From positions 134,294,001 to 134,358,000 of the forward strand of contig NW_024704742.1 in assembly GCF_018977255.1 (NCBI RefSeq): a DNA stretch of 64,000 nt. Direction: 5' to 3'. Shown piece by piece: positions 21,215-57,800 of this stretch (positions are counted from its first letter, which is position 1; each line of letters opens with the position of its first letter). The notes under the pieces are model-generated. The model was not told the DNA's origin. It did not search any database and saw nothing but the letters and a program-made list of their open reading frames with translations. A program made the translations under genes and the position numbers. Source of the stretch: Callorhinchus milii (taxonomy: Eukaryota).

Positions 21215-21320
21215 ATGTCGGCGGAGTTTCCCACAGAATCACCCCCTCGCTTTGTGGCTTCACTCAAGTCTCAGCGAGTCTCAGAGAATGTTGACGTCCA
21301 ATTCTCCTGTACAATATCTG
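21215..21320 (+). CDS. ALPK2: ALPK2 first coding exon (exon starts at 21203), start of Ig-like domain 1
   Basis: MSAEFPTESPPRFVASLKSQRVSENVDVQFSCTIS(G). Acceptor tgttttag at 21202, donor G|gtaaat. Confidence 0.88.
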
Positions 21321-22712: not shown

Positions 22713-22830
22713 GTAACCCAGAACCAGAAATAACCTGGTACAGAGGAGACAAAGAGCTTCCTAAATCTCTCGGACTCCCTAAATACGAAATACTAAAGAA
22801 TGGCACGATTCACACACTGAAACTGTACAG
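22713..22830 (+). CDS. ALPK2: ALPK2 coding exon 2, Ig-like domain 1
   Basis: 118 nt, (G)NPEPEITWYRGDKELPKSLGLPKYEILKNGTIHTLKLY(R). Carries the I-set Ig G.P.P.ITWY motif, with canonical ag/gt boundaries and phase 1->2. Confidence 0.92.
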
Positions 22831-28450: not shown

Positions 28451-29896
28451 ATGCAGTGAGGACGATGCCACCATTTACCAAGCCTCAGCTAGAAGCAAAA
28501 AGGGGATCGCCATCTGCTCTGCACATCTGAGGGTGGGCTCTGTCACTGAAGCTCAGATCAGACAGAGAATGATGGACAGACTAAAGTTGAGACATCAAGC
28601 CAAAGACACAAGCCCAAACTCCATTGGCTCGGGGTCTGGGTGTGGGTGTGTGTCTGGGTCGGGTGGGCAGAAAGTAGGAGAAGTTCTGCACAGTGCTTGC
28701 AGTTCTCCACAAGAAGTGAGTGATAGCAAAGCACATTCTCCAGCTGTCAGTCGCTTCCCAAATAGAGATAAGGAGGCAGACCAGCTGGGAGTTAGATTGG
28801 AGCCTGTGAACCCAACGCTTCCTGAAGCAAGAGGGTCTCTGGGACTAGATCCCAGCCTTAACCCTGAGTTGGCTGCTGCAGATCGGAGCTGGAGCCTGGC
28901 TGGGTCTCCTGGGAAGCGCCTTGGAGCACTGGTTGAATCAGAGTCACAATTGCAACGTGTGAAAAACCAACCCATTACTGAAATTGCTATGCAACCTCAC
29001 AGCCCATATCCCGACCCCTCCCGGCGCCCGGGGAGATGGGTAGGGGTTGGGGCTTTCCCTCTGTGGGAGGAGGAGGACTTTCTGGATGAGCTGATGTGCT
29101 CTGATGTGATGAGTGAGACCGAGCAAGCTGTCTGGACCAAGGCTTTGAGCTGCCAGGATCCTCTCAGTCATGTTGTGAAATGGACAAGTTCCCTGGACAA
29201 CAAGCTGGTGATATGGACACAACCAGCAGAAGTGACCCTGGCCTCTCCTCTCCTCATCCAAGCGAGATCTACCATCCCACAGGTGAGGACACCTCCCCCT
29301 CCCAGTGGTGAGCACACCCCTTCTGGGCTTGTTGAACCCCATTCTGCACTTGTTGACCCCCATTCAGGGATCCTCGCCCTGCACCAATGCACCCAACGCC
29401 AAGCACAAGGCACCTGGTTGGGTAAACTTGGTAGAACATCACCCATTCTTCCTCCAGAAGGTCCTCACTTAGGGCGGGTGGATGCCAGAGTGGATCTGGG
29501 GGTGGGTGCCACTGGAGTGGGCCAGTTGGAAGAAAGCAGAGGGGGTGAGGTCTCAAGGGAGGAGTTGACACTCAAAGAGGCGTGTGTCCCAATCCTGGAT
29601 GACTCAAACTCCGCTGAAGTTCAGCAGAACCAGTCAGAAGAGACAACTATCGCTGCTCTGAGAGGGTTGGTCCTTCCACCAGGGAGCAAACCCAGGGGCA
29701 TTTGGGAAAGGTCTACAGTCAGGCTGATGGTGGGAGACACCGAGGAGAAGCCAGCAGACACCACAGCCCAGATCCTCTCCACAGTGGAGAGGAGCCAGGG
29801 AGCTCCCCATGCCTCACTCCAAGTGGAATTGACTAGGAAGAAAGCGGGGAACCGGAAGCAAGTTTTGGAGAGGAAAAGCACTGTGGGATCGATATG
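28451..29896 (+). CDS. ALPK2: ALPK2 coding exon 3: end of Ig1 plus low-complexity region (3' boundary and phase uncertain)
   Basis: After a (TC)n-tag acceptor it reads (R)CSEDDATIYQASARSKKGIAICSAHLRVG. Contains EEEDFLDELMCSDVMSETEQAVW, resembling the ALPK2 ..LEYLECSDVMTDYSNAVW motif. Strong donor G|gtaagc at 29896; alternative in-phase donor CAG|gtgagg at 29282. Confidence 0.85.
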
Positions 29897-37897: not shown

Positions 37898-40800
37898 GCC
37901 GAAATACAACCTTTGCTTTTAGAAGCTGGGGAAAGATGTTTTCCTGAAAATACTATCAGCTCAATGAGCAAAGTAGATGATCACAGTAACTGCAGGACGT
38001 GTGATGACAAGCAGACACCAGACCCCGATATTATATCCTTGTCACAGCAGGAGGATTGCAGTTGTCAATCTGACAGCACAAGGCTCGAGACAAAGTGTGA
38101 AATGCAAACAAATGTCTTGTTCACAAAGAGCATGACTTCAGAAAGCAGTGACTTCAAAGACAAAGGTGTTGAGCACAAGCCGGATGAACTATTGCTGTTG
38201 TCTCTGAGTGGTGAAAGGGATGAATTGGATCCGGCTTTAGGTGTGACGGAATGCAGATCATTCAGTCCTGTGACACAACCAACAAATTTTCTTAACACCT
38301 TGCATGATCGCACAGTGCAATCTTTGGAGGGTCTAGAAGAGAAAGTTTGTGAAGAACACAAGGACACTCAGGCTTCAGTGCAGTGTATGGGGGCAGATGC
38401 TGGCACCGCTAATGTGAGTTCTCCAAACCGTAGCGAAACGTTGAGTTTTCGAGCATCTGCATTAACTCCAGTTTGGCATCTGGATAAAGAACAGTCAGTG
38501 GTTGAGCACAGGTTGGCTGAACCAGTACTGTTATCTGTCAGTGGTGAAAGGGATGAATTGGATCTGGCTTTGGATGTGATGGAAAACAGAACGTTCAGTC
38601 CTGTAACTGAATCAACAGTAGCTTCTGCACAGTCAGTGGACTCATTACTGATTACGATTACTGATGATAAAGTGATGGCAAGAGAGGAAATGATAGATCG
38701 GAATGCTGGAGAAAATGAGACTGAAAGCATCAATCAAAAAGACACGTCAATCAGTGAATATCAGGGGCCTTACACAGTGCAGGATGTCATAAGTGGTGAC
38801 CATCAAGTGTGTGCCATCAATGAAAAAGTGGGTGAACAATCTGCTTACCCCACAGAGATATCCAAGTCTCCTGTTAAGGATGGAGGATGTGTTGGGGAAA
38901 AAGGTGAATTTGGTCAAAACATTGCAAGTTCAATTCGTGAAGGTGATGACCTCACATGTATGTCTGCACAACCTCAAGGAAGTGAAGCTGATTGCGGGAT
39001 GGAAAGCGGACATATGGCTGACCTTCTTATGCCTCTAATAACAGCAGATTGTGACCTAGAAATGGAGATTCCTTGCGATAATCTTTCCATTCGTGATATA
39101 GACATGGAACCCTTTAGACCATGGGTAGAATTGCACCTTCAAAACACGGATCCATCATCCGTTCATCACAAAGGGTCTGAGTCCAACGTATCAAAGGCAG
39201 AAGACCAATATGGAAGAGTGGATATACTCCGAGATAGTCAGACATCTGTGGCCATGTCCGTACACATTTCAAATGTCGCAGACACTTGTTCCACCATCGG
39301 TTTGACCGATAGTCAATGTTTGGATGAAGAACTGAAATCCTCTTTGGATGTTTATAATGATAATGCAGCTGGGCTCAAAAATAACAAAGCCAATTTGCCG
39401 GTTACGAAAAGTTCTCAAGTTGAGTCCAGCCCAATAGTTGCATGTGGACGCAAAATTGTACCCATTGTGCCACTTTCTCACTCCAGTGTTGGTCTTGTAG
39501 AAGGCTTTACTCCAATGCCAGTGCCTCAGATCAGTGCTGTGCACAAAGTAATAACCAGTGAACTGGAAAAATCTGCTTATGGATTACAAAACATCACTGA
39601 AAATATTCTTCTCAACACCACTGCAGAAGAGCATGACCAAACTGTTCAGCCTTTGGAGGGTCTACAAGAGAATGTTTGTGAAGAACACAAGGACACTCAG
39701 GCTTCAGTGCAATCCATGGGGTCACAGACTGGCACAGCTAACGTGACTTTTCCAAACAGTAGCAAAGCATTAAGTTTCCCAACAACTTTGGTTCCTCCAG
39801 TTTTGCATTTGGATAAACAACAGTCAGTAGCTGAGCACAAGTTGGCTGAACCGGTGCTGCTTTCTGTCAGTGGTGAAAGGGATGAATTGGATCTGGCTTT
39901 GGGTGTGATGGGAAACAGAACGTTCACTCCTGTGATAGAAGCAGCAGTAGCTGATGCACAGCCGGTGGACTCAATACTGATTGTAGATTGTGAGGTGATG
40001 GCAAGAGAGAAGGTGTCTCTCTCCAAAATGACAAATTGTAACTCCGGAGAAAATGAGACTGAAAGGGTCAATCAAGAGGACACATCCACCACTGAATGTC
40101 AGGGGCGTTGTACAGTGCAGGATGTTATAAACGGTGACCATCACACATGTGCTATCAACGAACAACTGGGTGAGCAATCTACTTATCCTACTGTGTTGTC
40201 CATGTCTCCTGTTACATGTCCACCATTTATAAATGCTAAGCCCAACATTCAGACAATATCAGGCCAAGTTCTGAATTCTGAACCTGTGCTGGATTTGGAA
40301 GACAATTTCCAAACACTGCAAAACCTGGGAGAACCTGACATTAAAGTGGACACCTCAGGATCGCCCATGCCATCCTTAACAAAAATGAACAAAAGTGATG
40401 GGTCTCTATTAGCAACAGCACAACTTCAACCAGCCTTGGTTAGCAATACAAGTGACAATGCAATGAGCATCATGGAGTTTATTGTGGCAAATAAGCAAGA
40501 ATCTTCTACCGCATGCTTCGCCATAATAGAGACATCTGTTCATCCTCAAATGATACATGAGTGTGCAGTGGAGAAGGCTACCAAGGTTGTTTTAGTGGAA
40601 GATCACGAGAGAGTGCAGTTTGAGCATGATATCCTGCCGACCGATCCAGAGTCTCTGGAACCTTTGTTCGTCAAGGTATCAAACAGGGATAAGATGGATA
40701 TAATTCAGCCCATGCTTCAAGATCAGGTCCACTCGGTGATACCCGTCACAGAGATCCTTGGGGCTACTGAGCTTATCGCGGCTGTGAATTGTAAATGTTC

Positions 40801-43800
40801 GGAAGAGTCTTCACCACGTACAGACCAGTTTGTATTGCTTCAGGGGGAAGCTGGTCAATTCACCAAGGATTCTGGAATCAGTGTCACCCCATCGGCAGAA
40901 GATAAGCACACATCAGATCAGAGCCAAAGTGGGAAAGAGGAGTCTGGGAATGTCTCCGCTAGTCTAAAACTGGGCACTCCACCAGTAAGGCTCAAGAGTT
41001 TAATTGTGAGGTCAGTTGCTTTGGATGTGAACAACATTTCCCAAAAATTGGGACACCGAGGCAATTGGACAGGGTCAGAAGAACATTCTTCGTTGAATGC
41101 AGGTCAAGTGGCTGGCCAGTTACGGACAAAAACAGAACCAGGAAAGAGCTGCAGCGGAAACAAACCTGTATCCATCACTGGAGAAAACACAGACACCAAT
41201 GATGGCAAAAGTCATGAGCTGCCCAACGTTCTCAGGAGCCCAGAACCTGACACAATCCCCCACCCGGTTGTAAACTCAGTCACAAAGGCTGAACCAGAGA
41301 TGCAGATGGAACATGGCAAAGGGTTCCCAAGAGGGGATCTTAACAAATGCAGTGCTCCAGCTGCCTTGAGCTGCTTTCCATCGGACGTCAATGCCAGGAC
41401 TTCAAGGCAAAACGCGGATGCTGAACGTAAGGAAACGGTTTGCCAGACACTGGAGCCACCCAGCAACAAGACCTCCATATTGCTGGCTCAGCTGGATGTG
41501 ACAAATGTCGCACAAAGAAATAAGGACCACACTGAACTCCTGTGCGCTCAGCAAGCATCGAAAATCTCAGTGCAAGATGGGCAGAGAAAGGCTATTGGCA
41601 CTGTCTCCTCTATACCATCAAAGCCTTTAGCCAAGGGGAATGTTGCCTTTGTGCCATATATCACAAAATCCTTGGGGCTACTGAGCTTACAGCAACCATG
41701 AATTCTATGAGCTCGGAAGGGTCGTCACCATGTGTAGACCATGCTTCTGCCTTGTTTCAAGGAGAAGCCGGCCAACTCACTAAGGGCTCTGAAACCAGTG
41801 TTGCCCTTTCCGCAGAGGATGGTGACGCATCAAATCAAAGCCAAGGTGGGACAGAGGAGTCTGCTAATGTTTCCGCTGGTCTAAGACTGGGCGCTCCACA
41901 ACTAAATGAACAGCTCAAGAGCTTAATGGTGAGATCAGCTGCCTCAAGTGTGAACATCAGTTTCCAAACGTTGGGAAGCCAAGGTGATTGCAAGTCAGGA
42001 TCAGTTGAACATTCTGCGTTGGATGCAGGCCAAGTGGCTGGGCAGTTACAGCCAAAAACAGAGCCAGGGAAAAGCTGCAGTGGAAACAAACCTGCGTCCA
42101 TCACTGGAGAAAACACAGAAACCAATAAAGGCAAAAATCATGACCTACCCACAGCTCTCAAGAGCCCAGAATCTGAAACGGTCGCCCATCTGATTGTACA
42201 CTCAGTCACAAACTCTGATACCATAGAACCAGAGATCCAGATGGAACTTGGCAAAGGGTTCCCAGGAGGGGATCTGAACAAGTCAAGTACACCAGTTGTC
42301 TTTCATTGTTTTCCATCAGACAGCAAGATGACAAAGGCAAACGCTGAACGTAAGGAAGCGATCTGCGATACACAAAAGCCGCCCAACAAGCTCAAACTTT
42401 CTGGCCGGAGGAATAAGGACAACGACTGTCAAAGAGATAAGGATGGCATCGAGCTCCCACATGCTCAGAAAGTATCTAAAGTCTTAGTGAAAGATAGACA
42501 GAGGAGCATTGTTGGCTCGGTCTCCTCTACGCCATCAAAGCCTTTAGCCAAGGAGAGCCTTGCATTTGTACCATGTATCTCAGAGAACCTTGGGGCTACT
42601 GAGCTTACTGCAACCATGAATTCTAGGTTCTCGGAAAAGTCTTCAACATGTGTAGACCAGTCTGCTTTGTTTCGGGGTGAAGCCAGTCAACTCAAGAAGG
42701 ACTTGGGAACCACTGTTACCCTATCTGCAGAGAGTGCTAACACATCAGTTCAAAGCCAAGGTGGGACAGAGGAGTCTGCGAATGTCTCCGCTAGTCTAAG
42801 ACTGGGCGCTCCTCCAGTAAGCGAACGGCTCAAGAGTTTAATTGTGAGGTCAGCTGCTTTGGATGTGAACAACAGTTCCCAAACATTGGGATACCGAGGC
42901 ATTTGGACAGGGTCAGGAGAACATTCTGCATTGAATGCGGGTCAAGTGGCTGGGCGATTACGGGCAAAAACAGAACCAGGGAAGAGCTGCAGTGGAAACA
43001 AATCTATATCCGTCACTGGAGAAAACACAGAAACCACTGAAGGCAAAAATCATGACCTGCCCAATATTCTCAGGAGCCCAGAACCTGACACAATCCCCCA
43101 CCCGATTGTAAACTCAGTCACAAAGGCTGATACCATAGAACCAGAGATGCAGGTGGAACTTGGCAAAGGGTTCCCAAGAGGGGATCTCAATAAGTCCAGT
43201 GCTCCAGCTGCCTTGAGCTGTTTTCCACCAGAATTCAAGGCCAGGACTTCAAGGCAAAACACGGATGCTGAACGTAAGCAAATGGTTTGCCAGACAATGA
43301 ATCCATCCAGCAACAAGACCTCCATATTTCCTGCTCAGCTGAACGTGGCGAATGTCTCACAAAGAAATAAGGACTACACTGAGCTCCTGTGTGCTCAGAA
43401 AGTGTCGAAAATCTCAGTGCAAGATGGGCAGAGAAAGGCTGTTGGCACGGTCTCCTCTATACCATCAAAGCCTTTAGCCAAGGGGCATATTGCCTTTGCA
43501 CCATGTGTCACAGAGATCCTTGGGGCTACTGAGCTTACTGCAACCATGAATTCTAAGTGCTCGGAAAAATCTTCACCATGTGTAGATCATGCATCTGCCT
43601 TATTTCAAGGAGAAGCCGGCCAACTCACTAAGGGTTCGGGAACCATTGTCGCCCTTTCCGCAGAGGATGAAGACACATCAGATCAAAGCCAAGGTGGGAC
43701 AGAGGAGTCTGCTAATGTAAGACTGGGTGCTCCACCAGTAAGTGAACGGCTCAAGAGCTTAATGGTGAGGTCAGCTGTCTCAGGTGTGAACAACAGTTCC

Positions 43801-46800
43801 CAAACACTGCAAACCCGAAGCAATTGCAAGACGGTAGCAGGAGAACATTCTGCGTTGAATGCAGGTCAAGTAGCTGGGAAGTTACAGCCAAAAACAAAAC
43901 CAGGGAAGAGCTGCAGGGGAAACAAACCTGCGTCCACCACCAGAGAAAGCACAGAAACTAATAAAGGCAAAAATCATGACCTGTCCACAGATCTAAAGAG
44001 CCCAAAATCTGATACATTCACCCACCAGATTGTACACTCAGTGACAAATACTGATACCATAGAACCAGAGATCCATATGAAACTTGGCAAAGGGTTCCCA
44101 GTAGTGAATCTCAACAAGTCAAGTGCACCAGATATCTTGGACTATCTTCCATCAGACAGCAAGGTGACGAACACGGATGCTGAACGTAAGGAAACGGTTT
44201 GCAAGACACCAAAGCCACCCAACAACAAGACCCCCAAATTTTCTGCTCAGCTGAATGTGGAGAACGACACACAAAGAAATAAGGACAGCATTGAGTTACT
44301 GGCTAATCAGAAAGTATCTAAAGTCTCAGTGCAAGAAGGGCAGAGTGGGGTTGATGGCTCAGTCTCCTCTATGCTATCAAAGCCTTTTGCCAAGGGGAGC
44401 ATTGCCTTTGTACCATGTATCACAGAGATCCTTAGGGCTACTGAGCTTACCACAGCTGTGAATTGTAAGAACGCGGAAGCGTCGTCACCACTTGTATACC
44501 AGTCTGACTTATTTCAGGGGGAAGCCGATCAACTCACCAAGGACTCGGGAATCAGTGTCACCCTTTCTGCAGAGGATGATCACACATCAGTTCAAAGCCA
44601 AGGTGAGACAGAAGAGTCTGCTAATGTCTCCGTTGGTCTAAGATTGGACGTTCCACCAATAAGCGAACGGCTCCATAGCTTAATGGTGAGGTCAGCTGCC
44701 TTGGGGGTGGACAATAGTTCCCAAAGGTTGGGACACCGAGGCGTTTGCAAGATGGTGGCAGGAGAACATTCTGTATTGAATGCAGGTCAAGTGGCTGGGC
44801 GATTATGGCCAAAAACAGAACCAGGGAAGAGCTGCAGGGGAAACAAAACTGTGTCCGTTACCGGAGAAAAAACCCAAACCAATGAAAATTATGACCTGCC
44901 CAATGCTCTCAAGAGCCTAGAATCTGACCCAGTCGCCCACCCGGTTGTACACTCAGTCACAAACACCAATACCATAGAACCAGAGATACAGATAGAACTT
45001 GGTAAGCAGATCCCAGAAAGGGATATCAACAAGTCCAGTCCTCCGGCTTCAATGCCCTATTTTACACAGGCCTTCAAGACGACGACCACAGATACTGAAC
45101 ACAAGAAAACGGTTTGCCAGACACTGAAGCAGTCTGACAACAAGACCCCAAAATTTTATGCTCAACTGAATGCAGAGAATGCCTTACGACTTACGGGGTG
45201 TGAAAGAGATAAGGACCATGTTGAGCTCCCATGTGCTCAGAAAGTATCTAAATTCTCATTGAAAGATAGGCAGAGGAGGGTTGTTGGCTCAGTCTCCTCT
45301 ATGCCTTCAAAGCCTTTAGCCAAGGGGAGTGTTGCCTTTGTACCATGTATCACAGAGATCCTGGGGGCTACTGAGCTAACTGCAACTATGAATTCTAAAT
45401 GCCCGGAAGAGTCTTCACCACGTGTAGATAAGTCTGCCTTGCTTCAGGGAGAAGCCAGTCAACTCACCAAGGACTTGGGAAGTCCGCCCAGTTGCGTAAT
45501 TTCCGCAGGAGACAACCACACATTGGATCAAAGCCTCGGTGAGACAGAGGAGTCTGTTAATGTCTCCACTAGTCTAAGACCAGGCACTCCACCAGGAAGT
45601 GAACGGCTCAAGAACTTAAAGTCGAGGTTAGCTGCCTTGGGGGTAGGCAACAGTTCCCAAACATTAGGATGCCGTGGTGGTTGCAAGACAGTCTCAGTTG
45701 AACCTTCTGCTATGAATGCAGGCTATGTAGCTGGCCGATTACGGCCAAAAACAGAACCAAAGAAGACCTGCAGGGGAAATGTACCTGCATCCGTCACCAG
45801 AGAAAACAACAAAATCAATGAAGACAAAAATCATGACCTGTTCAACGCTCTTAAGAGTCCAGAATCTGACACAGTCGCCCACCAGGTTGTGCACATGGTC
45901 ACAAACGCCAATACCATAGAACCAGAGATGCAGATGGAACTTGGCAAGGAGTTCCCAACAGGGGTTCTTAACAAGTCTGGGGCTCCAGATGCTTTGCGCT
46001 GCTTTCCACTGGGCTTCAAGGCGAGGACTTCAAGGCAAAACAAGGAAGCTGAATGTAAGAAAATGGTATGCCAGACACAGAAGCTGCCCAGTAACAAGAC
46101 CCCCAAGCTTCCTGCTCGGCTGAATATGAAGAACGACTCACAGGAGCATGAAAGAGATAAGGATGGCAATGAGCTCCCAGGTGCTCCAAAAGTATCTAAA
46201 GTCTCAGTGCAAGATGGACAGGGGAGTATTGTTGGCTCGGTCTCCTCTACAGAGATCCTTGGGGCTAGTGAGCTTACTGCAGCCGTGAATAGTCAACGCT
46301 CGGAAGAGTCTTCACCACGTGTAGACCAGTCTGCCTTGTTTCAGGGAGAAGTCGGACAACTCACCAGGGTCTCGGAATGTCTGCCCAGTGTCTCCCTTTC
46401 CACAGAAGATGGCCACGCATCAGATCAAAGTGAAGGTGGGACAGAGGAGTCTACGAATGTCTCTGCTGGTCTAAGACTGGGCCCTCCACCAGTAAGTGAA
46501 CGGCTCAAGAGCTTAAAGTTGAGGTCAGCTGCCTCAGGTGTGGACAATAGTTCCCAAATACTGCAAAACCGAGGCGATTCTGCATTGAATGCAGATCAAG
46601 AGGCTGGGCGATTACAGCTAAAAACAGAACCAGGGAAGAGCTGCAGGGGAACCAAACCTGTGTCCGTCACCGGAGAAAACGCAGAAACCAACGAAGGTAA
46701 AAATCATGACCTGCCCAACGCTCTCAAGAGGCCAGAATCTGACACAGTCGCCCACTCAGTTGTACACTCAGTCACTAACTCTGATACTATAGAACCAGAG

Positions 46801-47515
46801 ATCCAGATGGAAATTGATAAGGGGTTCCCAAAAGGGAATCTCAACAAGTCCAGTGCTCCAGCTGGCTTGTATTGTTTTCCACCGGACTTGAAGGCAATAA
46901 GTAAGGATATTGAATGTAAGAAAATGGTTTGTCAGTCACTGAAGCCACCCAGCAACAAAATCCCCAAATTTCCTGCTCAACTGAATCCGGAGAATGATTC
47001 ATGGGAATACGAAAGAGATAAGGACATCATCGAGCTCCCACATGCTCAGACAGTATCTAAAGTCTCAGTGCAAGATGAACAAAGGAGTGCCGTTGGTTCG
47101 GCCTCCCCTCTGCCATCAAAATCTTTAGCCCAGGGGAACGTTGCCTTTGTACCATTCCACTGCATGACAACTTTAGCAGCCGCGACTACCAAAGAGCTGA
47201 TGTTGGGAGCCAGGAAGAAGGTTCATCTGCTGAAGCCACCTAGTGAGATCTCAGGTGCTGCCCCCGAGCCGGTCAGCCTCGTTGTGAAGGTAGATGATCA
47301 TCCCAAGAAGGAAGCTGTGAAGCGCTTATGTTTGTCCCCCGTCAGACAGGGGACAGTCCTGTCGGAGACGTGTTCCTCAGCAGAGAAAGAAAATTTCACT
47401 GAAGACATCACGGCAACTAAAAGGATTTGTCAGAAGGCCGGTGAGGAGGCTACTCAACACAACGATTACCAGGAGCTCAGAAAAGCACTGCAGCCTCAGC
47501 AGGAAGTGCAGAAAG
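37898..47515 (+). CDS. ALPK2: ALPK2 giant exon (~9.6 kb) containing internal repeats and one apparent frameshift at ~41665
   Basis: Acceptor tttctttttgacag at 37897. Overlapping ORFs 37913-41701 and 41542-47532 join if one A is added at 41665-41668. Donor AAAG|gtaaa at 47515 is in phase with the kinase exon. Confidence 0.85.
38168..40213 (+). repeat. Second coding repeat family: ~575 bp duplication (38303-38875 vs 39632-40213) plus a partial third copy (38168-38278)
   Basis: HD.TVQ.LEGL.E.VCEEHKDTQASVQ.MG...SPV occurs twice, and LLS.SGERDELD.AL.V occurs three times. Confidence 0.9.
40751..47155 (+). repeat. Seven tandem coding repeats of ~900-930 bp (~305 aa)
   Basis: The unit marker E[I/N]L[G/R]A[T/S]EL recurs at ~40751, 41666, 42583, 43513, 44425, 45355 and 46252. 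The last unit ends at AFVP, ~47155. Confidence 0.95.
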
Positions 47516-47996
47516 GTAAAAGTTTTCATTAAAGACTTAAACTCAATTTATACAGACTAGCATCCCGGAGCCCTTGGCAGTGGCGGAGTCCGCCCCCGAG
47601 CCACGGGGAGAGGGGGGTGGGAGGAGACTGGAAGCACGATCAAAAAGGAAAGTCTTTAGGTGGGATTGAAAGTGGGGAGGGAGGGGGCAAGGAGGAGGGA
47701 TTGAGGGAGAGTGTTCCAGAGTTTTGGGGCATAGTGGCTGAAGGTACGGCCACCGATGGTGGAACGGATTGGACGAGGGCTGAATTGGAGGCCGGAGCCA
47801 GATTTTATTATTATTATTATTAAGTGTAATCACAGTGTGGTTACCGGCATTGTACTTGCATGAATCCTGCGAGCAGAAAATAGAGACTCGGTGCCACAGA
47901 GGTCCTTATAGAAATGCAAGTTGCTGTTGTAGCCATACAGAGGGGTGGAGGGCACGGAATTCATGGTAGCATTCCTCCTTTTGTCATTCTTTCCAG

Positions 47997-48271
47997 GCGG
48001 GGAGGAGATTGAGCTGCTGCAACTCACAGTTGAAAAGGAGCTCACAACCCAATGTAACTTTGGTGGCCAGATGTGGGGTAGGATTGCGACAGACGAAGTC
48101 CATTTTGGTGAAGGTTTGCACCGCAAGGCATTTCGGACTACAGTTATCTGTGGCCTTTTACCTCTGTTTGATTCCGGGCACAGCTGTGTGTTAAAAATTC
48201 ACAACACCATTGCATACGGGACCAAATCAAACAACGATCTCATCGAGCTGAACTATAAGTTAGCAGTACAG
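47997..48271 (+). CDS. ALPK2: ALPK2 alpha-kinase domain exon 1
   Basis: 275 nt, GGEEIELLQL...GRIATDEVHFGEGLHRKAFRTTVICGLLPLFDSGHSCVLKIHNTIAYGTKSNNDLIELNYKLAVQ. HFGEG.HRKAF and IAYGT are ALPK2-type. Canonical splice sites. Confidence 0.96.
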
Positions 48272-49416: not shown

Positions 49417-49505
49417 GAGTGCCAAGTGCAGAACACTGCTCGGGAATACGCCTGTGGATTTGCAGCAGAGGGGATGTTACTAGATAACTTTGGAGATGGT
49501 CCTGA
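49417..49505 (+). CDS. ALPK2: ALPK2 alpha-kinase domain exon 2
   Basis: 89 nt, ECQVQNTAREYACGFAAEGMLLDNFGDGP(E). Bounded by ccag| and |gtgagt. Confidence 0.95.
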
Positions 49506-50390: not shown

Positions 50391-50608
50391 GGTCATTCCC
50401 ATCTATCTGATCCACCGGACGGCCAACATCATTCCCTATGCCACGGTGGAGGAGGAGCTGATCGGGGACTTTGTGAAGTATTCGGTGAGGGACGGCAGGG
50501 AGCTGAACGTGGGCAGAAAGGTGTCTGAGGCCGGTCAGAAATGCTGCACCTTCCAGCACTGGGTGTATCAGAGGACTGATGGAAACCTCCTTGTGACTGA
50601 TATGCAAG
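50391..50608 (+). CDS. ALPK2: ALPK2 alpha-kinase domain exon 3
   Basis: 218 nt, [72 protein letters not shown](G). Confidence 0.97.
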
Positions 50609-51572: not shown

Positions 51573-51621
51573 GTGTGGGGATGAAGTTAACCGACATTGG
51601 GATTGCAACGTGTAGCAAAGG
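51573..51621 (+). CDS. ALPK2: ALPK2 alpha-kinase domain exon 4
   Basis: 49 nt, (G)VGMKLTDIGIATCSK(G). Bounded by tgcag| and |gtaagt. Confidence 0.95.
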
Positions 51622-53751: not shown

Positions 53752-53947
53752 GTACAAAGGATTTAAAGGGAACTGTTACATCTCCTTCATTGAGCAGTTC
53801 AAAGCTCTCCACCAGTGTAATCAGTATTGCAACATGATGGGTTTGAAGTCTCTGAAAACCAGCCAGCAGAAACCCAAAAGGACAGGCTCAGTGAAGACCC
53901 ACCTGACTCACAACCAATCCCGCACTCAACAGAGAAAATACCGCTGA
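53752..53947 (+). CDS. ALPK2: ALPK2 last coding exon (zinc-binding tail of the alpha-kinase, stop TGA)
   Basis: [64 protein letters not shown]. Confidence 0.95.
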
Positions 53948-54807: not shown

Positions 54808-57800
54808 GGACCATTCAGCCCCTCAAGCCTGTTCCACCATTCTATTAGATCATGGCTGATCTGTACCCCAACTCTACTTACCTGCCTCTGCTCCATATCG
54901 CTTGACACCCTGACCTAACAAGAGAAGATCATCTGGACTCATTCAGGAAACAGCCACATGCTGTGATGTGCAGGTATTCTGGAAGGATGAGATCAAGTGG
55001 GCTGTATATCCACCTCTCTCTATGGCTTCAAACTAAATAAATGTCAATCCACTTGTGAAGTTCTCTCTCCATTGACATCCTAGAAGGTTGAAGTGGAGCT
55101 AAGTGGGTTTGCTTTCACTGCCCCGTGTTTTCTAATCTGCATTGTGACAATAGCACTAAGAGACTGTCAATGTTTATGGTTTTGTGCAATTCTGAGCATG
55201 AGAATATAGTTAAATCGGATCTCTAGTAGCACGTTACAACACAGGAGCAGTAGGAGGCCATTCAGCCCATCAAGCCTGTTCCACCCAGATGAGCCTAACC
55301 TCATTTGAATCTGTTTTCAATGGTTCTGTTTGAAATCCTAATAAAAAACTTGATCTTCTTACTTTTGGTGAGCTGGGGAGAGGAGAACCACATGAATTTA
55401 TTTATACAAGGGAAGTCCATCTGGCCCAGAGAAATATTGACCATTATTCTCAGCTACAGCAGGAGATGCAGTGATGGAGAACTGATTATTTTAGATACGT
55501 TGCAATTAATTGTCAACATAAAGCACTCTTAATAAAAAAAGTAATATTTTGGTCACTCAATCCACGACTGTTTGTGAGACATTGCTAAGTGCAATTGGCT
55601 GCTGTGTTCGCCCACAAAACACACAGTCACTCCACTTTATATTTTATTCTGTGAAGCACTTTGGGATTTCCTTTTGACATGCTATATCAAATGCAAGAAT
55701 TATTACTGTAATTACGATTATTATTAATAGGTGTTTTGTTTTCTATACGTTGGTGATTTTCAATAACTTTGAATGGAAGGGTGACTGAATGGATGGAGCA
55801 ATTATTTCAATTTTTTTAAAAATAATTTTCATAATTTCAAAAAAAATTCACAAAATAAACTCAATTTGGGGAAAATACACATAAAAGTGTTTTTTAATAA
55901 AACAAATCCTTTGATGTCAATTGCATATGAGATGTTGTGGTCATTATTTCCCAGGAACCTATTCTTGCACTGATTAGATCGTCTTATAGCAAAGGTTAAA
56001 TAGAATACAGAAATGTACACAGTGTGGAGAAAGGGCAGGTAAATGGGACTGAAAGTATTGCTCTTTAAAAGAGCTGGCACAGGCACGATGGGCTGAATAG
56101 CTTTCTTCTCTGCTTTAAATTTCTATGTTTCTAAAGAAAATAAATCGGCCGTTCAACCCATCCTAGCATGTTTCTTTACTTATTCCGCATGCCTTTCTTT
56201 ACCCAGCAGTAAGTAGGAACCCGGTTGTTAGTCGATTGGCGGATCGCTTTCCAGGGGTAATAATCCTTTATAAAAAAANCTGACAGGCCCCCACCACCCC
56301 ACTATCAGCATGTCTGACACATGCTTATATCCATCACCATGTTAAGATTATCCAAACCACACCAAGTGTTCCATCCATACATGTCACTTACACATGGAGA
56401 TTTCCCTGTGTCTGGAATGGGATGCACACTCTCTTCCCAAGGGACGTGTCCGGCTTATTACCTAATTCCAGAAAATATGAGGTGCAAGTTGTCAAGAGCC
56501 AAGGTTTGGGGAGCGTTTTCTGCGGTAATTACTGGAGTTTAACCAGATAAAAATACATAGATTCCCATTGAGAGCACTATCTGGCAAACTTCCCCACTGC
56601 TTGTCCAGCTAGGACTAGCCTAGTCCTGTTAGGGCTTCAGGTTGCGGGTTAACAGTTTTCACTATTATTGATGATATCGCACACTGAACAGACGACAGGG
56701 GTTTGTATCTTTAGCAGTAAGAAATTTGACAGAATTACATAGAACACTCCAGCACAGAAACAAACCTTGTTTTAGTTTTATTTACTTTTATATCTTCAAT
56801 ATAATTAAACACTTAAGCAGAAAACATGTCCATTACAACAATAAGGTTACATTTATATAGCGCCTTTCAACAACAACAGCAACAAGAAATTACATTTGTA
56901 TAGCGCCTTCACATCGGTAGGACATCCCAAGGCACTGAATAAAAGTGCTGTTATCAGAATCTCAGAGCGCTCGACAGTGGTGTGGTTTGAACAGTGAGCT
57001 GGAAAGAGAGGGGAAATGGCTGAAGACAAGGTCAAAGAGGAAAGTCATCAGGTGTGATTTGAAGATGGGCAAAGAGGAGGCAAGTCAGAGGGATTGAGGC
57101 TGGGAGTTCCAGAGATTTGGGACACAGTGGCTGAAACCACGGCCAACGGAGGTGGAGTGGAGGGGACGAGGGACATGCAGAAGACCTGAGCCAGTTGAGC
57201 GAAAGCGGTGGGTAGTGAGTGTTGTATAAGGTAAATAACCCTACAATGCAACTAACCATACACATCAATAAAATGAGGCTAAGACCAGGATATAAAACCT
57301 CGGGCTCTGTGATCTAACAATATATATGTTAACACGTTTTCATTATGTATATTATACATTAATGTTTCTAGTCAGAGTCCTGCAGCACATTTTATCAAAC
57401 TGTATTCAAAGACTTGAATAGGCAAAACGTATTCCTAAATAAACACGTTAAAGCATAGATAGCAATTACACATCTGTACGTCAGATCTATAACCATAACA
57501 TAATCTTTGCTGGAATGGCAACAACAACAACTTGGATTTATATAGCGCCCTCCACGCCGGACAGCATCTCAGAGCGCTTTACAGAAACGCAGCTTTCATG
57601 TAAGGCGGATGTTCTAAAGTGCTTCACAGGATACACTGTGAAGTGGAATGACTGTGATTGTGGGTGAATCCAGCAGCCCGATTACCCCCGTTTCACTAAA
57701 GAAATACAATAACACCAAATTCTAGACTCTGAGGCCATTTTGCTACATTTTGAGCTGGTTGAGCTCCAGCGGTTATCTCCAATGCACATACAGGAGACCC

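What the first reader, a model, noticed from the sequence alone, without database searches (positions are those of the whole stretch)
40751..47155. Seven ~305-aa tandem repeats expand this ALPK2 to ~4,040 aa
Seen: seven units of ~900-930 bp lie inside one 9.6 kb exon. They are visibly diverged, yet contain no in-frame stop, and their length differences preserve frame apart from one homopolymer site. The units are S/T/E/K-rich with recurring Cys and motifs (EILGATEL, TEPGKSC.G.K, IEPE.QMELGKGFP). Summing the exons with two 1-bp corrections gives 12,117 nt, or 4,038 aa plus stop. Known: human ALPK2 is about 2,170 aa, and I do not recognise this unit in it. Inference: a lineage-specific repeat module kept open by selection, possibly a spacer, ruler or multivalent docking array in a cardiac alpha-kinase.
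Basis: partly seen in the sequence, partly recalled or inferred. Interest (0 to 1): 0.8.

Follow-up and report, generated by a model that had tools for sequence, protein, structure and literature searches.

The report
Seven-fold linker repeat in chimaera ALPK2
The elephant-shark gene for the kinase ALPK2 carries seven old, diverged copies of a ~305-residue linker segment that sharks and rays have once, and it lacks the immunoglobulin domain next to the kinase; the copies change almost freely, so this is likely a tolerated lengthening of a probably floppy linker rather than a new functional module.

Summary
Confirmed. The window holds Callorhinchus milii ALPK2. Seven 897-930 bp units (77-87% DNA identity, no stops) lie in one 9.6-kb exon. 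Database models from an older annotation hold the same seven, and RNA-like contigs of two studies cover the array and appear spliced at both exon ends. Predicted length is 4,038 aa after two 1-bp fixes; the first is well supported, the second less so. The unit is not a transposon or known domain: it is a native ALPK2 linker segment, present once in 14 of 14 elasmobranch species. Between copies dN/dS is 0.86-0.89, not distinguishable from 1, while stops and frameshifts are purged. The open frame therefore most likely protects the downstream kinase and does not show that the repeats do anything. Astyanax ALPK2 has an unrelated repeat expansion in its linker. No description found in my searches. 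The scan had no earlier ALPK2 finding, but noted similar in-gene expansions (anillin, CENP-E) in this genome. Real and unusually large, most likely a tolerated expansion.

The parts
21215..21320 (+). ALPK2 coding exon a, ATG and start of N-terminal Ig domain (Ig1)
   Evidence: 68% identity to Heptranchias ALPK2 aa 4-40
22713..22830 (+). exon b, middle of Ig1
   Evidence: 75% identity to Heptranchias aa 40-79; partial I-set match, E 0.0027, below the curated cut-off
28451..29896 (+). exon c, end of Ig1 and first linker part; window lacks one base after 29852
   Evidence: added base in X6, X1, X2; length of X6 record 25 fits this exon joined to 37898 (inferred)
37898..47515 (+). giant exon d, 9,618 bp (3,206 codons after one added base; 836-1,186 aa in 11 elasmobranch models)
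   Evidence: matches P0007 with 7 substitutions and one 6-aa indel over 3,205 aa
38303..38875 (+). second, separate repeat, copy A (~190 aa); a partial third copy lies at about 38168-38284
   Evidence: 79% DNA identity to copy B; 70% aa identity; one copy in Pristiophorus
39632..40213 (+). second repeat, copy B
40754..41667 (+). unit 1 (304 aa); the window's reading frame shifts at its end (one base missing after 41665)
41668..42585 (+). unit 2 (306 aa)
42586..43515 (+). unit 3 (310 aa), sister to unit 1 (87% DNA)
43516..44427 (+). unit 4 (304 aa), sister to unit 2 (84% DNA)
44428..45357 (+). unit 5 (310 aa)
45358..46254 (+). unit 6 (299 aa; 51-bp in-frame deletion at its end)
46255..47157 (+). 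unit 7 (301 aa)
47516..47996 (+). 481-bp intron where elasmobranchs have the exons for the second Ig domain and a short linker (123 aa); here about half is an interspersed repeat and no Ig2 is found
   Evidence: tblastn of shark Ig2 against the window, best E 0.59; X4 record 24 leaves no room for Ig2 (inferred)
47997..48271 (+). kinase exon e (P-loop, catalytic Lys)
49417..49505 (+). kinase exon f
50391..50608 (+). kinase exon g (first catalytic Asp, first Zn-binding His)
51573..51621 (+). kinase exon h (second catalytic Asp)
53752..53947 (+). last coding exon i (Zn-binding His, Cys, Cys; stop)

Best explanation
Elephant-shark ALPK2 has seven tandem copies of one ancestral ~305-residue linker segment inside a single large exon, likely made by repeated unequal crossing-over and likely tolerated because this probably disordered linker is only weakly constrained, with the frame likely kept open for the sake of the kinase encoded downstream. 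Shown: seven copies here and one in elasmobranchs; near-neutral amino-acid change; purged stops and frameshifts; no second Ig domain in the gene; catalytic and zinc residues present. Inferred: at least one step copied a two-unit block (units 1+2 to 3+4); the copies are of the order of 100-230 million years old; the product is a ~4,040-aa protein (Ig1, ~3,600-residue linker, alpha-kinase) in which the repeats act only as a longer passive tether; the linker is disordered; the kinase is active.
For: Origin: a profile of the unit finds 7 copies in P0001 and P0007 and one colinear copy in 14 of 14 elasmobranch species (two stingrays give it in two colinear pieces, one of them partial), and none in 3 of 3 bony vertebrates. 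The unit aligns end to end with that segment. Weak constraint: omega 0.86-0.89 in four codon models, p = 0.08-0.18 against omega = 1; identity by codon position 0.80, 0.80, 0.77; of the 38 exon-d variants that one search showed (73 further rows of that table were hidden), 25 are missense, 13 silent and 0 stops; the shark segment is 44-73% identical to Heptranchias, like its flanks (37-80%) and unlike the kinase (78-93%); unit and shark conservation are uncorrelated, rho 0.03, p 0.67. Frame kept: 0 of 2,000 neutral runs stop-free; 13 of 13 alignment gaps and both polymorphic multi-base indels shown in the exon (6 and 18 bp) are in frame. Recurrence: a second duplication upstream in the same exon; unrelated repeats in the Astyanax ALPK2 linker (5-mer offsets 309 and 222) and a weak two-copy repeat in Rhinatrema. 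History: units 1/3 and 2/4 are sisters with bootstrap 100. General pattern: insertions fall mostly in long unconstrained exons and encode disordered regions (PMC9825244, abstract and one results section).
Against: Omega is below 1 in every model, and 69 of 267 columns are invariant against 48-50 +/- 6 in uniform simulations. The excess disappears with CpG or gamma rate variation (P 0.21-0.47), but third positions are less invariant (0.43) than first and second (0.51, 0.52), which those models do not reproduce, so mild purifying selection is likely. dN/dS cannot see selection on length or composition. About 2,100 extra residues have been kept for a long time without whole units being visibly lost. 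Disorder is not shown: FoldIndex values are borderline positive (0.01-0.07, against 0.17 for the kinase and 0.22 for Ig2). No single contig spans the exon, and protein was not seen. Two DNA runs show no insertion row at 41665.
Confidence: 0.66

Rival explanations
1. Length-selected spacer: the sequence is free but the extra ~2,100 residues are kept because they set the reach between the N-terminal Ig anchor and the kinase, perhaps compensating for the lost second Ig domain.
For: Near-neutral sequence with a purged frame is also what an entropic tether would show. Two separate duplications lengthened the same exon about threefold. ALPK3, the closest paralogue, sits at the sarcomere M-band as a scaffold (PMC11358020, PMC12132735; passages).
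Against: Unit length varies (299-310 aa) and in-frame indels segregate. Stingray and white-shark models lack Ig2 without any repeat expansion, and Astyanax has an expansion with Ig2 kept, so the two changes are not coupled. The linker exon already varies from 836 to 1,186 aa among elasmobranch models.
Confidence: 0.16
2. Multivalent array: each unit carries a short docking motif or a Ser/Thr autophosphorylation patch, as the Ser/Thr-rich region next to the TRPM6/7 alpha-kinases does, so seven copies raise avidity or substrate recognition.
For: Ser plus Thr make up 19% of the units. [quoted passage not shown] There is a mild excess of invariant columns, and 9 of 274 columns are invariant in all 7 units and 9 sharks.
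Against: No local block of conservation: the best 20-column window has 10 invariant sites, P 0.07-0.08. No correlation with shark conservation. No Pfam family or solved structure (best E 0.28). The segment is not detectable in 3 of 3 bony vertebrates.
Confidence: 0.1
3. The long form hardly matters: the gene is decaying or is used mainly as a short kinase-only product (like the 380-aa model P0005), and the frameshift at 41665 is a real allele.
For: [quoted passage not shown]
Against: Stops are absent from all seven units where about 22 are expected, which needs translation through the array. RNA-like X6 carries the added base at 41665, and P0001 and P0007 read through it. RNA-like contigs cover the array. 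Ig1 exons and kinase residues are intact.
Confidence: 0.07
4. Assembly over-expansion or a transposon insertion.
For: The window does carry 1-bp errors.
Against: Copies are 13-23% diverged; P0007 has the same seven with 1 substitution in units 2-7; four runs hold unit-specific contigs at 95% or more, some bridging unit borders; the array matches nothing else in the window; the unit is orthologous to a shark ALPK2 segment.
Confidence: 0.01

Closest known systems
ALPK2 (heart alpha-kinase) of elasmobranchs, e.g. Heptranchias perlo XP_067840114.1 (P0010, 1,883 aa) and Pristiophorus (P0026, 2,240 aa)
   Same: Colinear Ig1, linker and alpha-kinase; same linker segment (one copy, about 28% identical to a unit); kinase 75% identical to Cetorhinus.
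   Different: Seven copies of the segment plus a second two-copy repeat; large-exon part 3,206 aa against 836-1,186 aa; no Ig2, which 10 of 13 elasmobranch species with kinase-reaching models have in at least one model.
Database models of this gene: UniRef A0A4W3HFX0 (P0001, 3,505 aa), XP_007901315.1 (P0007, 3,698 aa), XP_042191861.1 (P0005, 380 aa)
   Same: P0001 and P0007 already contain all seven units and the direct join to the kinase, so the sequence is in public databases.
   Different: None of the three has Ig1 or the full 4,038-aa form; their names do not mention repeats; P0005 starts after the array.
Astyanax mexicanus ALPK2 (P0037, 2,658 aa; a 3,005-aa cluster member)
   Same: Tandem repeats of 200-300 aa in the long linker.
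   Different: Unrelated unit sequence (best blastp E 0.10), fewer and less regular copies, Ig2 kept.
Elongation of long unconstrained internal exons that encode disordered regions (Fukuchi et al. 2022, PMC9825244; abstract and one results section read)
   Same: Growth inside a long internal exon by sequence repetition, between structural domains.
   Different: Scale: here about 5.5 kb added in 0.9-kb units; disorder is inferred here, not shown.
Mammalian ALPK2 and ALPK3 (PMC11599786 abstract and section 3.4; PMC5993047, PMC9698156, PMC11358020, PMC12132735 passages)
   Same: C-terminal alpha-kinase. Mouse and human ALPK2 is cardiac and linked to tropomyosin-1 Ser283 phosphorylation; zebrafish alpk2 is needed for heart development.
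   Different: ALPK3 is described with two Ig domains, and its Ig-plus-pseudokinase pair is proposed as a MuRF docking site; the chimaera ALPK2 has no Ig next to the kinase. No function is reported for the linker in the passages I read.

Membership tests
ALPK2 orthologue (vertebrate alpha-kinase 2) | C-terminal alpha-kinase domain | tested here: met
   PF02816 over its full length, E 5e-42; match to the TRPM7 kinase 1ia9, E 9e-15
ALPK2 orthologue (vertebrate alpha-kinase 2) | Catalytic Lys and two Asp, and zinc ligands His, His, Cys, Cys | tested here: met
   K172, D297, D307, H283, H336, C338, C342 of P0005 align with the TRPM7 residues (Lys, Asp and Cys roles from PMC2827801; the His ligands are recalled)
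ALPK2 orthologue (vertebrate alpha-kinase 2) | N-terminal Ig domain | tested here: met
   three exons match Heptranchias aa 4-145 at 60-75%
ALPK2 orthologue (vertebrate alpha-kinase 2) | Colinear homology with named ALPK2 proteins across linker and kinase | tested here: met
   no tree with ALPK3 was built
ALPK2 orthologue (vertebrate alpha-kinase 2) | Conserved gene neighbourhood | not tested
   no genome is held for this window
ALPK2 orthologue (vertebrate alpha-kinase 2) | Kinase activity and heart-enriched expression | not testable with these tools
   run tissues are not given; no assay
Canonical two-Ig ALPK2/ALPK3 architecture | Second Ig domain directly before the kinase | tested here: not met
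   absent from the window and from P0001, P0005, P0007; no room in X4 record 24. So it is filed as an ALPK2 orthologue with a variant architecture, not as a canonical two-Ig member
Known protein repeat or domain family | Match of the unit to a curated profile or solved structure | tested here: not met
   Pfam 0 families; PDB best E 0.28; Atlas best 0.80 to BRCA1 fragments, a level that shuffled proteins often reach
Transposon-derived repeat | Similarity to interspersed repeats and absence from orthologues | tested here: not met
   array matches only itself in the window; one orthologous copy in 14 of 14 elasmobranch species; no transposon library was available
Intrinsically disordered linker | No stable fold | tested here: inconclusive
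   aromatic residues 2-3.5% against 9.5% in the kinase, FoldIndex 0.01-0.07; AlphaFold pLDDT 39.7 is uninformative because the kinase control also scored 32.7
Functional multivalent repeat array | Purifying selection on a shared motif across copies | tested here: not met
   omega 0.86-0.89; no conserved window, no link to shark conservation; mild diffuse constraint remains possible

The most novel reading that the evidence does not exclude
Chimaeras rebuilt ALPK2: they lost the Ig domain beside the kinase and tripled the linker exon into a ~2,100-residue repeat tether whose length, or number of Ser/Thr patches, is selected and changes where or how the kinase acts in muscle. With one-copy sharks, Ig2-less stingrays and the independent Astyanax expansion, this would be a natural series for asking what the unstudied linker and Ig2 of ALPK2/3 do.
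Probability: 0.2. Interest if true: 0.65.

Novelty: new variant of a known kind. Interest (0 to 1): 0.4.

Why it matters
It is the longest ALPK2 that my searches found (4 alpha-kinase hits among 384 candidates of 2,311-5,000 aa; the next are 2,315-2,658 aa, with one 3,005-aa cluster member), and none of the three database models seen gives the full gene. It shows that the ALPK2 linker takes a threefold expansion of its main exon and that the Ig domain beside the kinase can be lost, apparently more than once in cartilaginous fishes. That bears on how to read linker and Ig2 variants in ALPK2 and, by analogy, in the cardiomyopathy gene ALPK3. As a repeat it is most likely an ordinary process at an unusual scale: an open frame upstream of a kinase is not evidence that the repeats have a function.

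Tried and rejected
Whole-genome search: no genome held, so no synteny and no search for displaced Ig2 exons outside the window. Word-based homologue search with one unit, 544-2,000 aa: 0 of 6,186 candidates, although relatives of that length exist; the profile searches found them, so this blank means nothing. P0003 and P0004 are repetitive microbial proteins, taken as composition hits. AlphaFold: unit pLDDT 39.7, pTM 0.13, but the folded kinase control gave 32.7, so neither was used and no fold search was run. ESM Atlas: only BRCA1 fragments at 0.77-0.80, not used. The self-comparison failed its own control (no repeats even in C. milii) and was redone: no comparable internal repeat in 11 of 11 elasmobranch proteins. 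No RNA holder is on record as RNA; X4 and X6 are guesses, supported only by contigs whose lengths fit exon joins. Runs with next to no shared words (X10-X24) were not used for tissue claims. The joint table was filled by interspersed repeats (4,335 rows hidden), so no splice joint was displayed directly. Contig depth was not used as copy number or expression level. DNA contigs listed leave 47660-47736, inside the intronic repeat, unbridged, so a collapse there is not excluded by DNA alone. No chimaera other than C. milii appeared in any search. No shark DNA was available, so no dN/dS against orthologues. Literature: C. milii + ALPK2, 1 paper, on TRPM evolution, passages read, nothing on the repeat; ALPK2 + tandem repeat, 19 of 20 listed, listing only, none on this; elephant shark + alpha-protein kinase, 0; ALPK3 + Ig2, 1 unrelated; ALPK2 + positive selection, 12 of 18 listed, listing only; general repeat-expansion search, 3 listed, listing only. 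The mouse knockout paper PMC7311700 is not held. No supplements were read, and subscription papers are not covered.
Full report
What the window is. The best relative of one unit among 1.84 billion representatives is P0001, which carries seven matching stretches and is named Callorhinchus milii alpha-kinase; its cluster holds C. milii ALPK2 models of 3,505, 3,698, 380 and 295 aa. Exon d of the window differs from P0007 by 7 substitutions and one 6-aa indel over 3,205 residues. The gene has nine coding exons on the + strand from 21215 to 53947, all with GT-AG introns, summing to 12,115 nt.

The observation. Seven units start at 40754, 41668, 42586, 43516, 44428, 45358 and 46255; they are 299-310 aa, 77-87% identical in DNA, and none has an in-frame stop. 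All 13 internal gaps of the DNA multiple alignment are multiples of three; pairwise alignments give 95 of 113. Neutral evolution on the unit tree gives 22 stops on average, and none of 2,000 runs was stop-free. The window needs two added bases. The one after 29852 is present in 3 of 3 runs with cover and P0007 reads that way. The one after 41665 is present in X6, and P0001 and P0007 read through, but X1 and X2 cover the place without an insertion row; the tool says not all differences were counted in those runs, so a real frameshift allele is not excluded. With both, the protein is 4,038 aa, or 4,044 with the 18-bp allele seen in X4 and X1.

Not an artefact, and likely transcribed. The copies are too diverged for an assembly duplication, a second annotation holds the same seven, and four runs give unit-specific contigs, some across unit borders. 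X4 and X6, from two studies, are only guessed to be RNA. X6 record 25 has 1,447 letters before 37897, the length of exon c with the added base, and a contig of the same depth shows at 29719 and 29852. X4 record 24 runs from 46622 to 47513 and has 367 more letters, which equal 2 + 275 + 89 + 1 (exon end, exon e, exon f, one base), and a contig of the same depth covers 48088. I infer splicing at both ends of the giant exon from these lengths; the joint rows themselves were hidden. Both runs have depth in every bin of the array. No contig spans the whole exon, and the tissue is unknown.

Where the unit comes from. A profile of the seven units found one copy in 9 of 11 elasmobranch ALPK2 proteins; a broader profile found it in the other two, and over all models seen there is one copy in 14 of 14 elasmobranch species and none in 3 of 3 bony vertebrates. 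The alignment is colinear from end to end. So the unit is a piece of the ancestral linker, not a transposon or new domain; Pfam, PDB and the Atlas give nothing usable. Units 1/3 and 2/4 are sister pairs (bootstrap 100), which points to one two-unit duplication, with mosaic 5' ends. The protein distance between units (0.53) is a quarter of the unit-to-shark distance (2.13) and close to that from Heptranchias and Pristiophorus to the other sharks (0.59). With recalled split dates of about 420 and 250 million years this gives roughly 100-230 million years; the clock is rough. It predicts that other chimaeras may share the array.

Selection. Omega between units is 0.86-0.89, and omega = 1 is not rejected (p = 0.08-0.18). 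Of the 38 exon-d variants shown, 25 are missense, 13 silent and none a stop (73 rows of that table were hidden, and one kinase-exon variant was left out). In sharks the segment is as variable as its flanks and far more so than the kinase or Ig2. Conservation among units is unrelated to conservation among sharks (rho 0.03), only 2 of 8 Cys-rich columns are fixed, and no window stands out. Against this, 69 of 267 columns are invariant, more than uniform neutral models give; CpG or gamma rate variation removes the excess, but the lower invariance of third positions suggests mild, diffuse purifying selection. The key point is that a stop anywhere in this exon would delete the kinase, so the open frame shows that the array is translated, not that it has a function.

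A second change. Where elasmobranchs have 123 aa holding the second Ig domain, the window has a 481-bp intron, about half of it an interspersed repeat, with no Ig2 match. All three C. milii models checked join exon d to the kinase, and X4 record 24 is too short to hold Ig2. Ig2 is present in at least one model of 10 of 13 elasmobranch species with kinase-reaching models; it is missing from both Hemitrygon isoforms, Hypanus and the one Carcharodon model, and Mustelus has isoforms with and without it. These are automatic models, so loss or skipping there is a lead. It does show that Ig2 absence and repeat expansion are not coupled. The kinase keeps its catalytic and zinc residues.

How it most likely works. 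A long internal exon encoding a weakly constrained linker was lengthened by in-frame unequal crossing-over, at least twice (a separate ~190-aa two-copy repeat lies upstream). Frame-breaking changes were removed because the kinase follows; most amino-acid changes were not. The product would be Ig1, a ~3,600-residue tether and an alpha-kinase. Disorder is inferred from composition, indel tolerance and rate; the AlphaFold test failed its control and FoldIndex is borderline. Astyanax ALPK2 has an unrelated expansion in its linker and Rhinatrema a weak two-copy repeat, so this linker expands repeatedly. This matches the general finding that insertions fall in long unconstrained exons and mostly encode disordered regions (PMC9825244, abstract and one section). 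Rivals are a spacer selected for length (0.16), a docking or autophosphorylation array like the Ser/Thr-rich region of TRPM6/7 (0.10; PMC2827801, passages), a decaying or short-form gene (0.07) and artefact (0.01).

Novelty. The sequence is already in public protein models, but I found no description of the repeat or of the Ig2 loss in the searches, which cover open-access full text only; no supplements were read. The scan had no ALPK2 finding; its notes on anillin and CENP-E in this genome describe similar in-gene expansions, which I did not check. Verdict: a real, large, lineage-specific variant of a known protein made by a known process; interest 0.4.

Noticed in passing
window 47516-47996: The exons for the second Ig domain of ALPK2 are missing; the giant exon joins the kinase exon in phase.
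   Followed up: yes
window 38303-38875, 39632-40213 and about 38168-38284: A second, separate in-exon duplication (~190 aa, two copies, 70% aa identity, plus a partial third); one copy in Pristiophorus.
   Followed up: partly
window 41665: Frameshift in the window; one RNA-like run and two database proteins restore the frame, two DNA runs show no insertion row. A real allele is not excluded.
   Followed up: partly
window 47170 and 46072: In-frame length polymorphisms: 18 bp present in X4, X1 and P0007; 6 bp missing in X6.
   Followed up: partly
P0035, P0041 (Hemitrygon), P0040 (Hypanus), P0030 (Carcharodon), P0028 (Mustelus X2): ALPK2 models without Ig2; possible independent loss in stingrays and exon skipping in sharks. 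Genomes not checked.
   Followed up: partly
P0037 aa ~325-1270 (Astyanax mexicanus): An unrelated tandem repeat expansion (offsets 309 and 222 aa) in the ALPK2 linker; a cluster member reaches 3,005 aa.
   Followed up: partly
P0036 aa ~800-1030 (Rhinatrema): Weak two-copy repeat, offset about 145 aa, in the ALPK2 linker.
   Followed up: no
P0010 (Heptranchias): The large-exon part is 836 aa against about 1,120-1,190 in most other elasmobranch models: an internal deletion or an internal splice.
   Followed up: no
P0008, P0011 (Heptranchias), P0048, P0049 (Stegostoma): Annotated ALPK2 isoforms that end in or after Ig2 and lack the kinase.
   Followed up: no
P0005: One database model of this gene is only 380 aa and starts after the array; the older long models lack Ig1. 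None of the three C. milii models checked gives the whole gene.
   Followed up: partly
window, introns and flanks; 56279: About half of the window is covered by repeated sequence, mostly dispersed families; one N at 56279.
   Followed up: no
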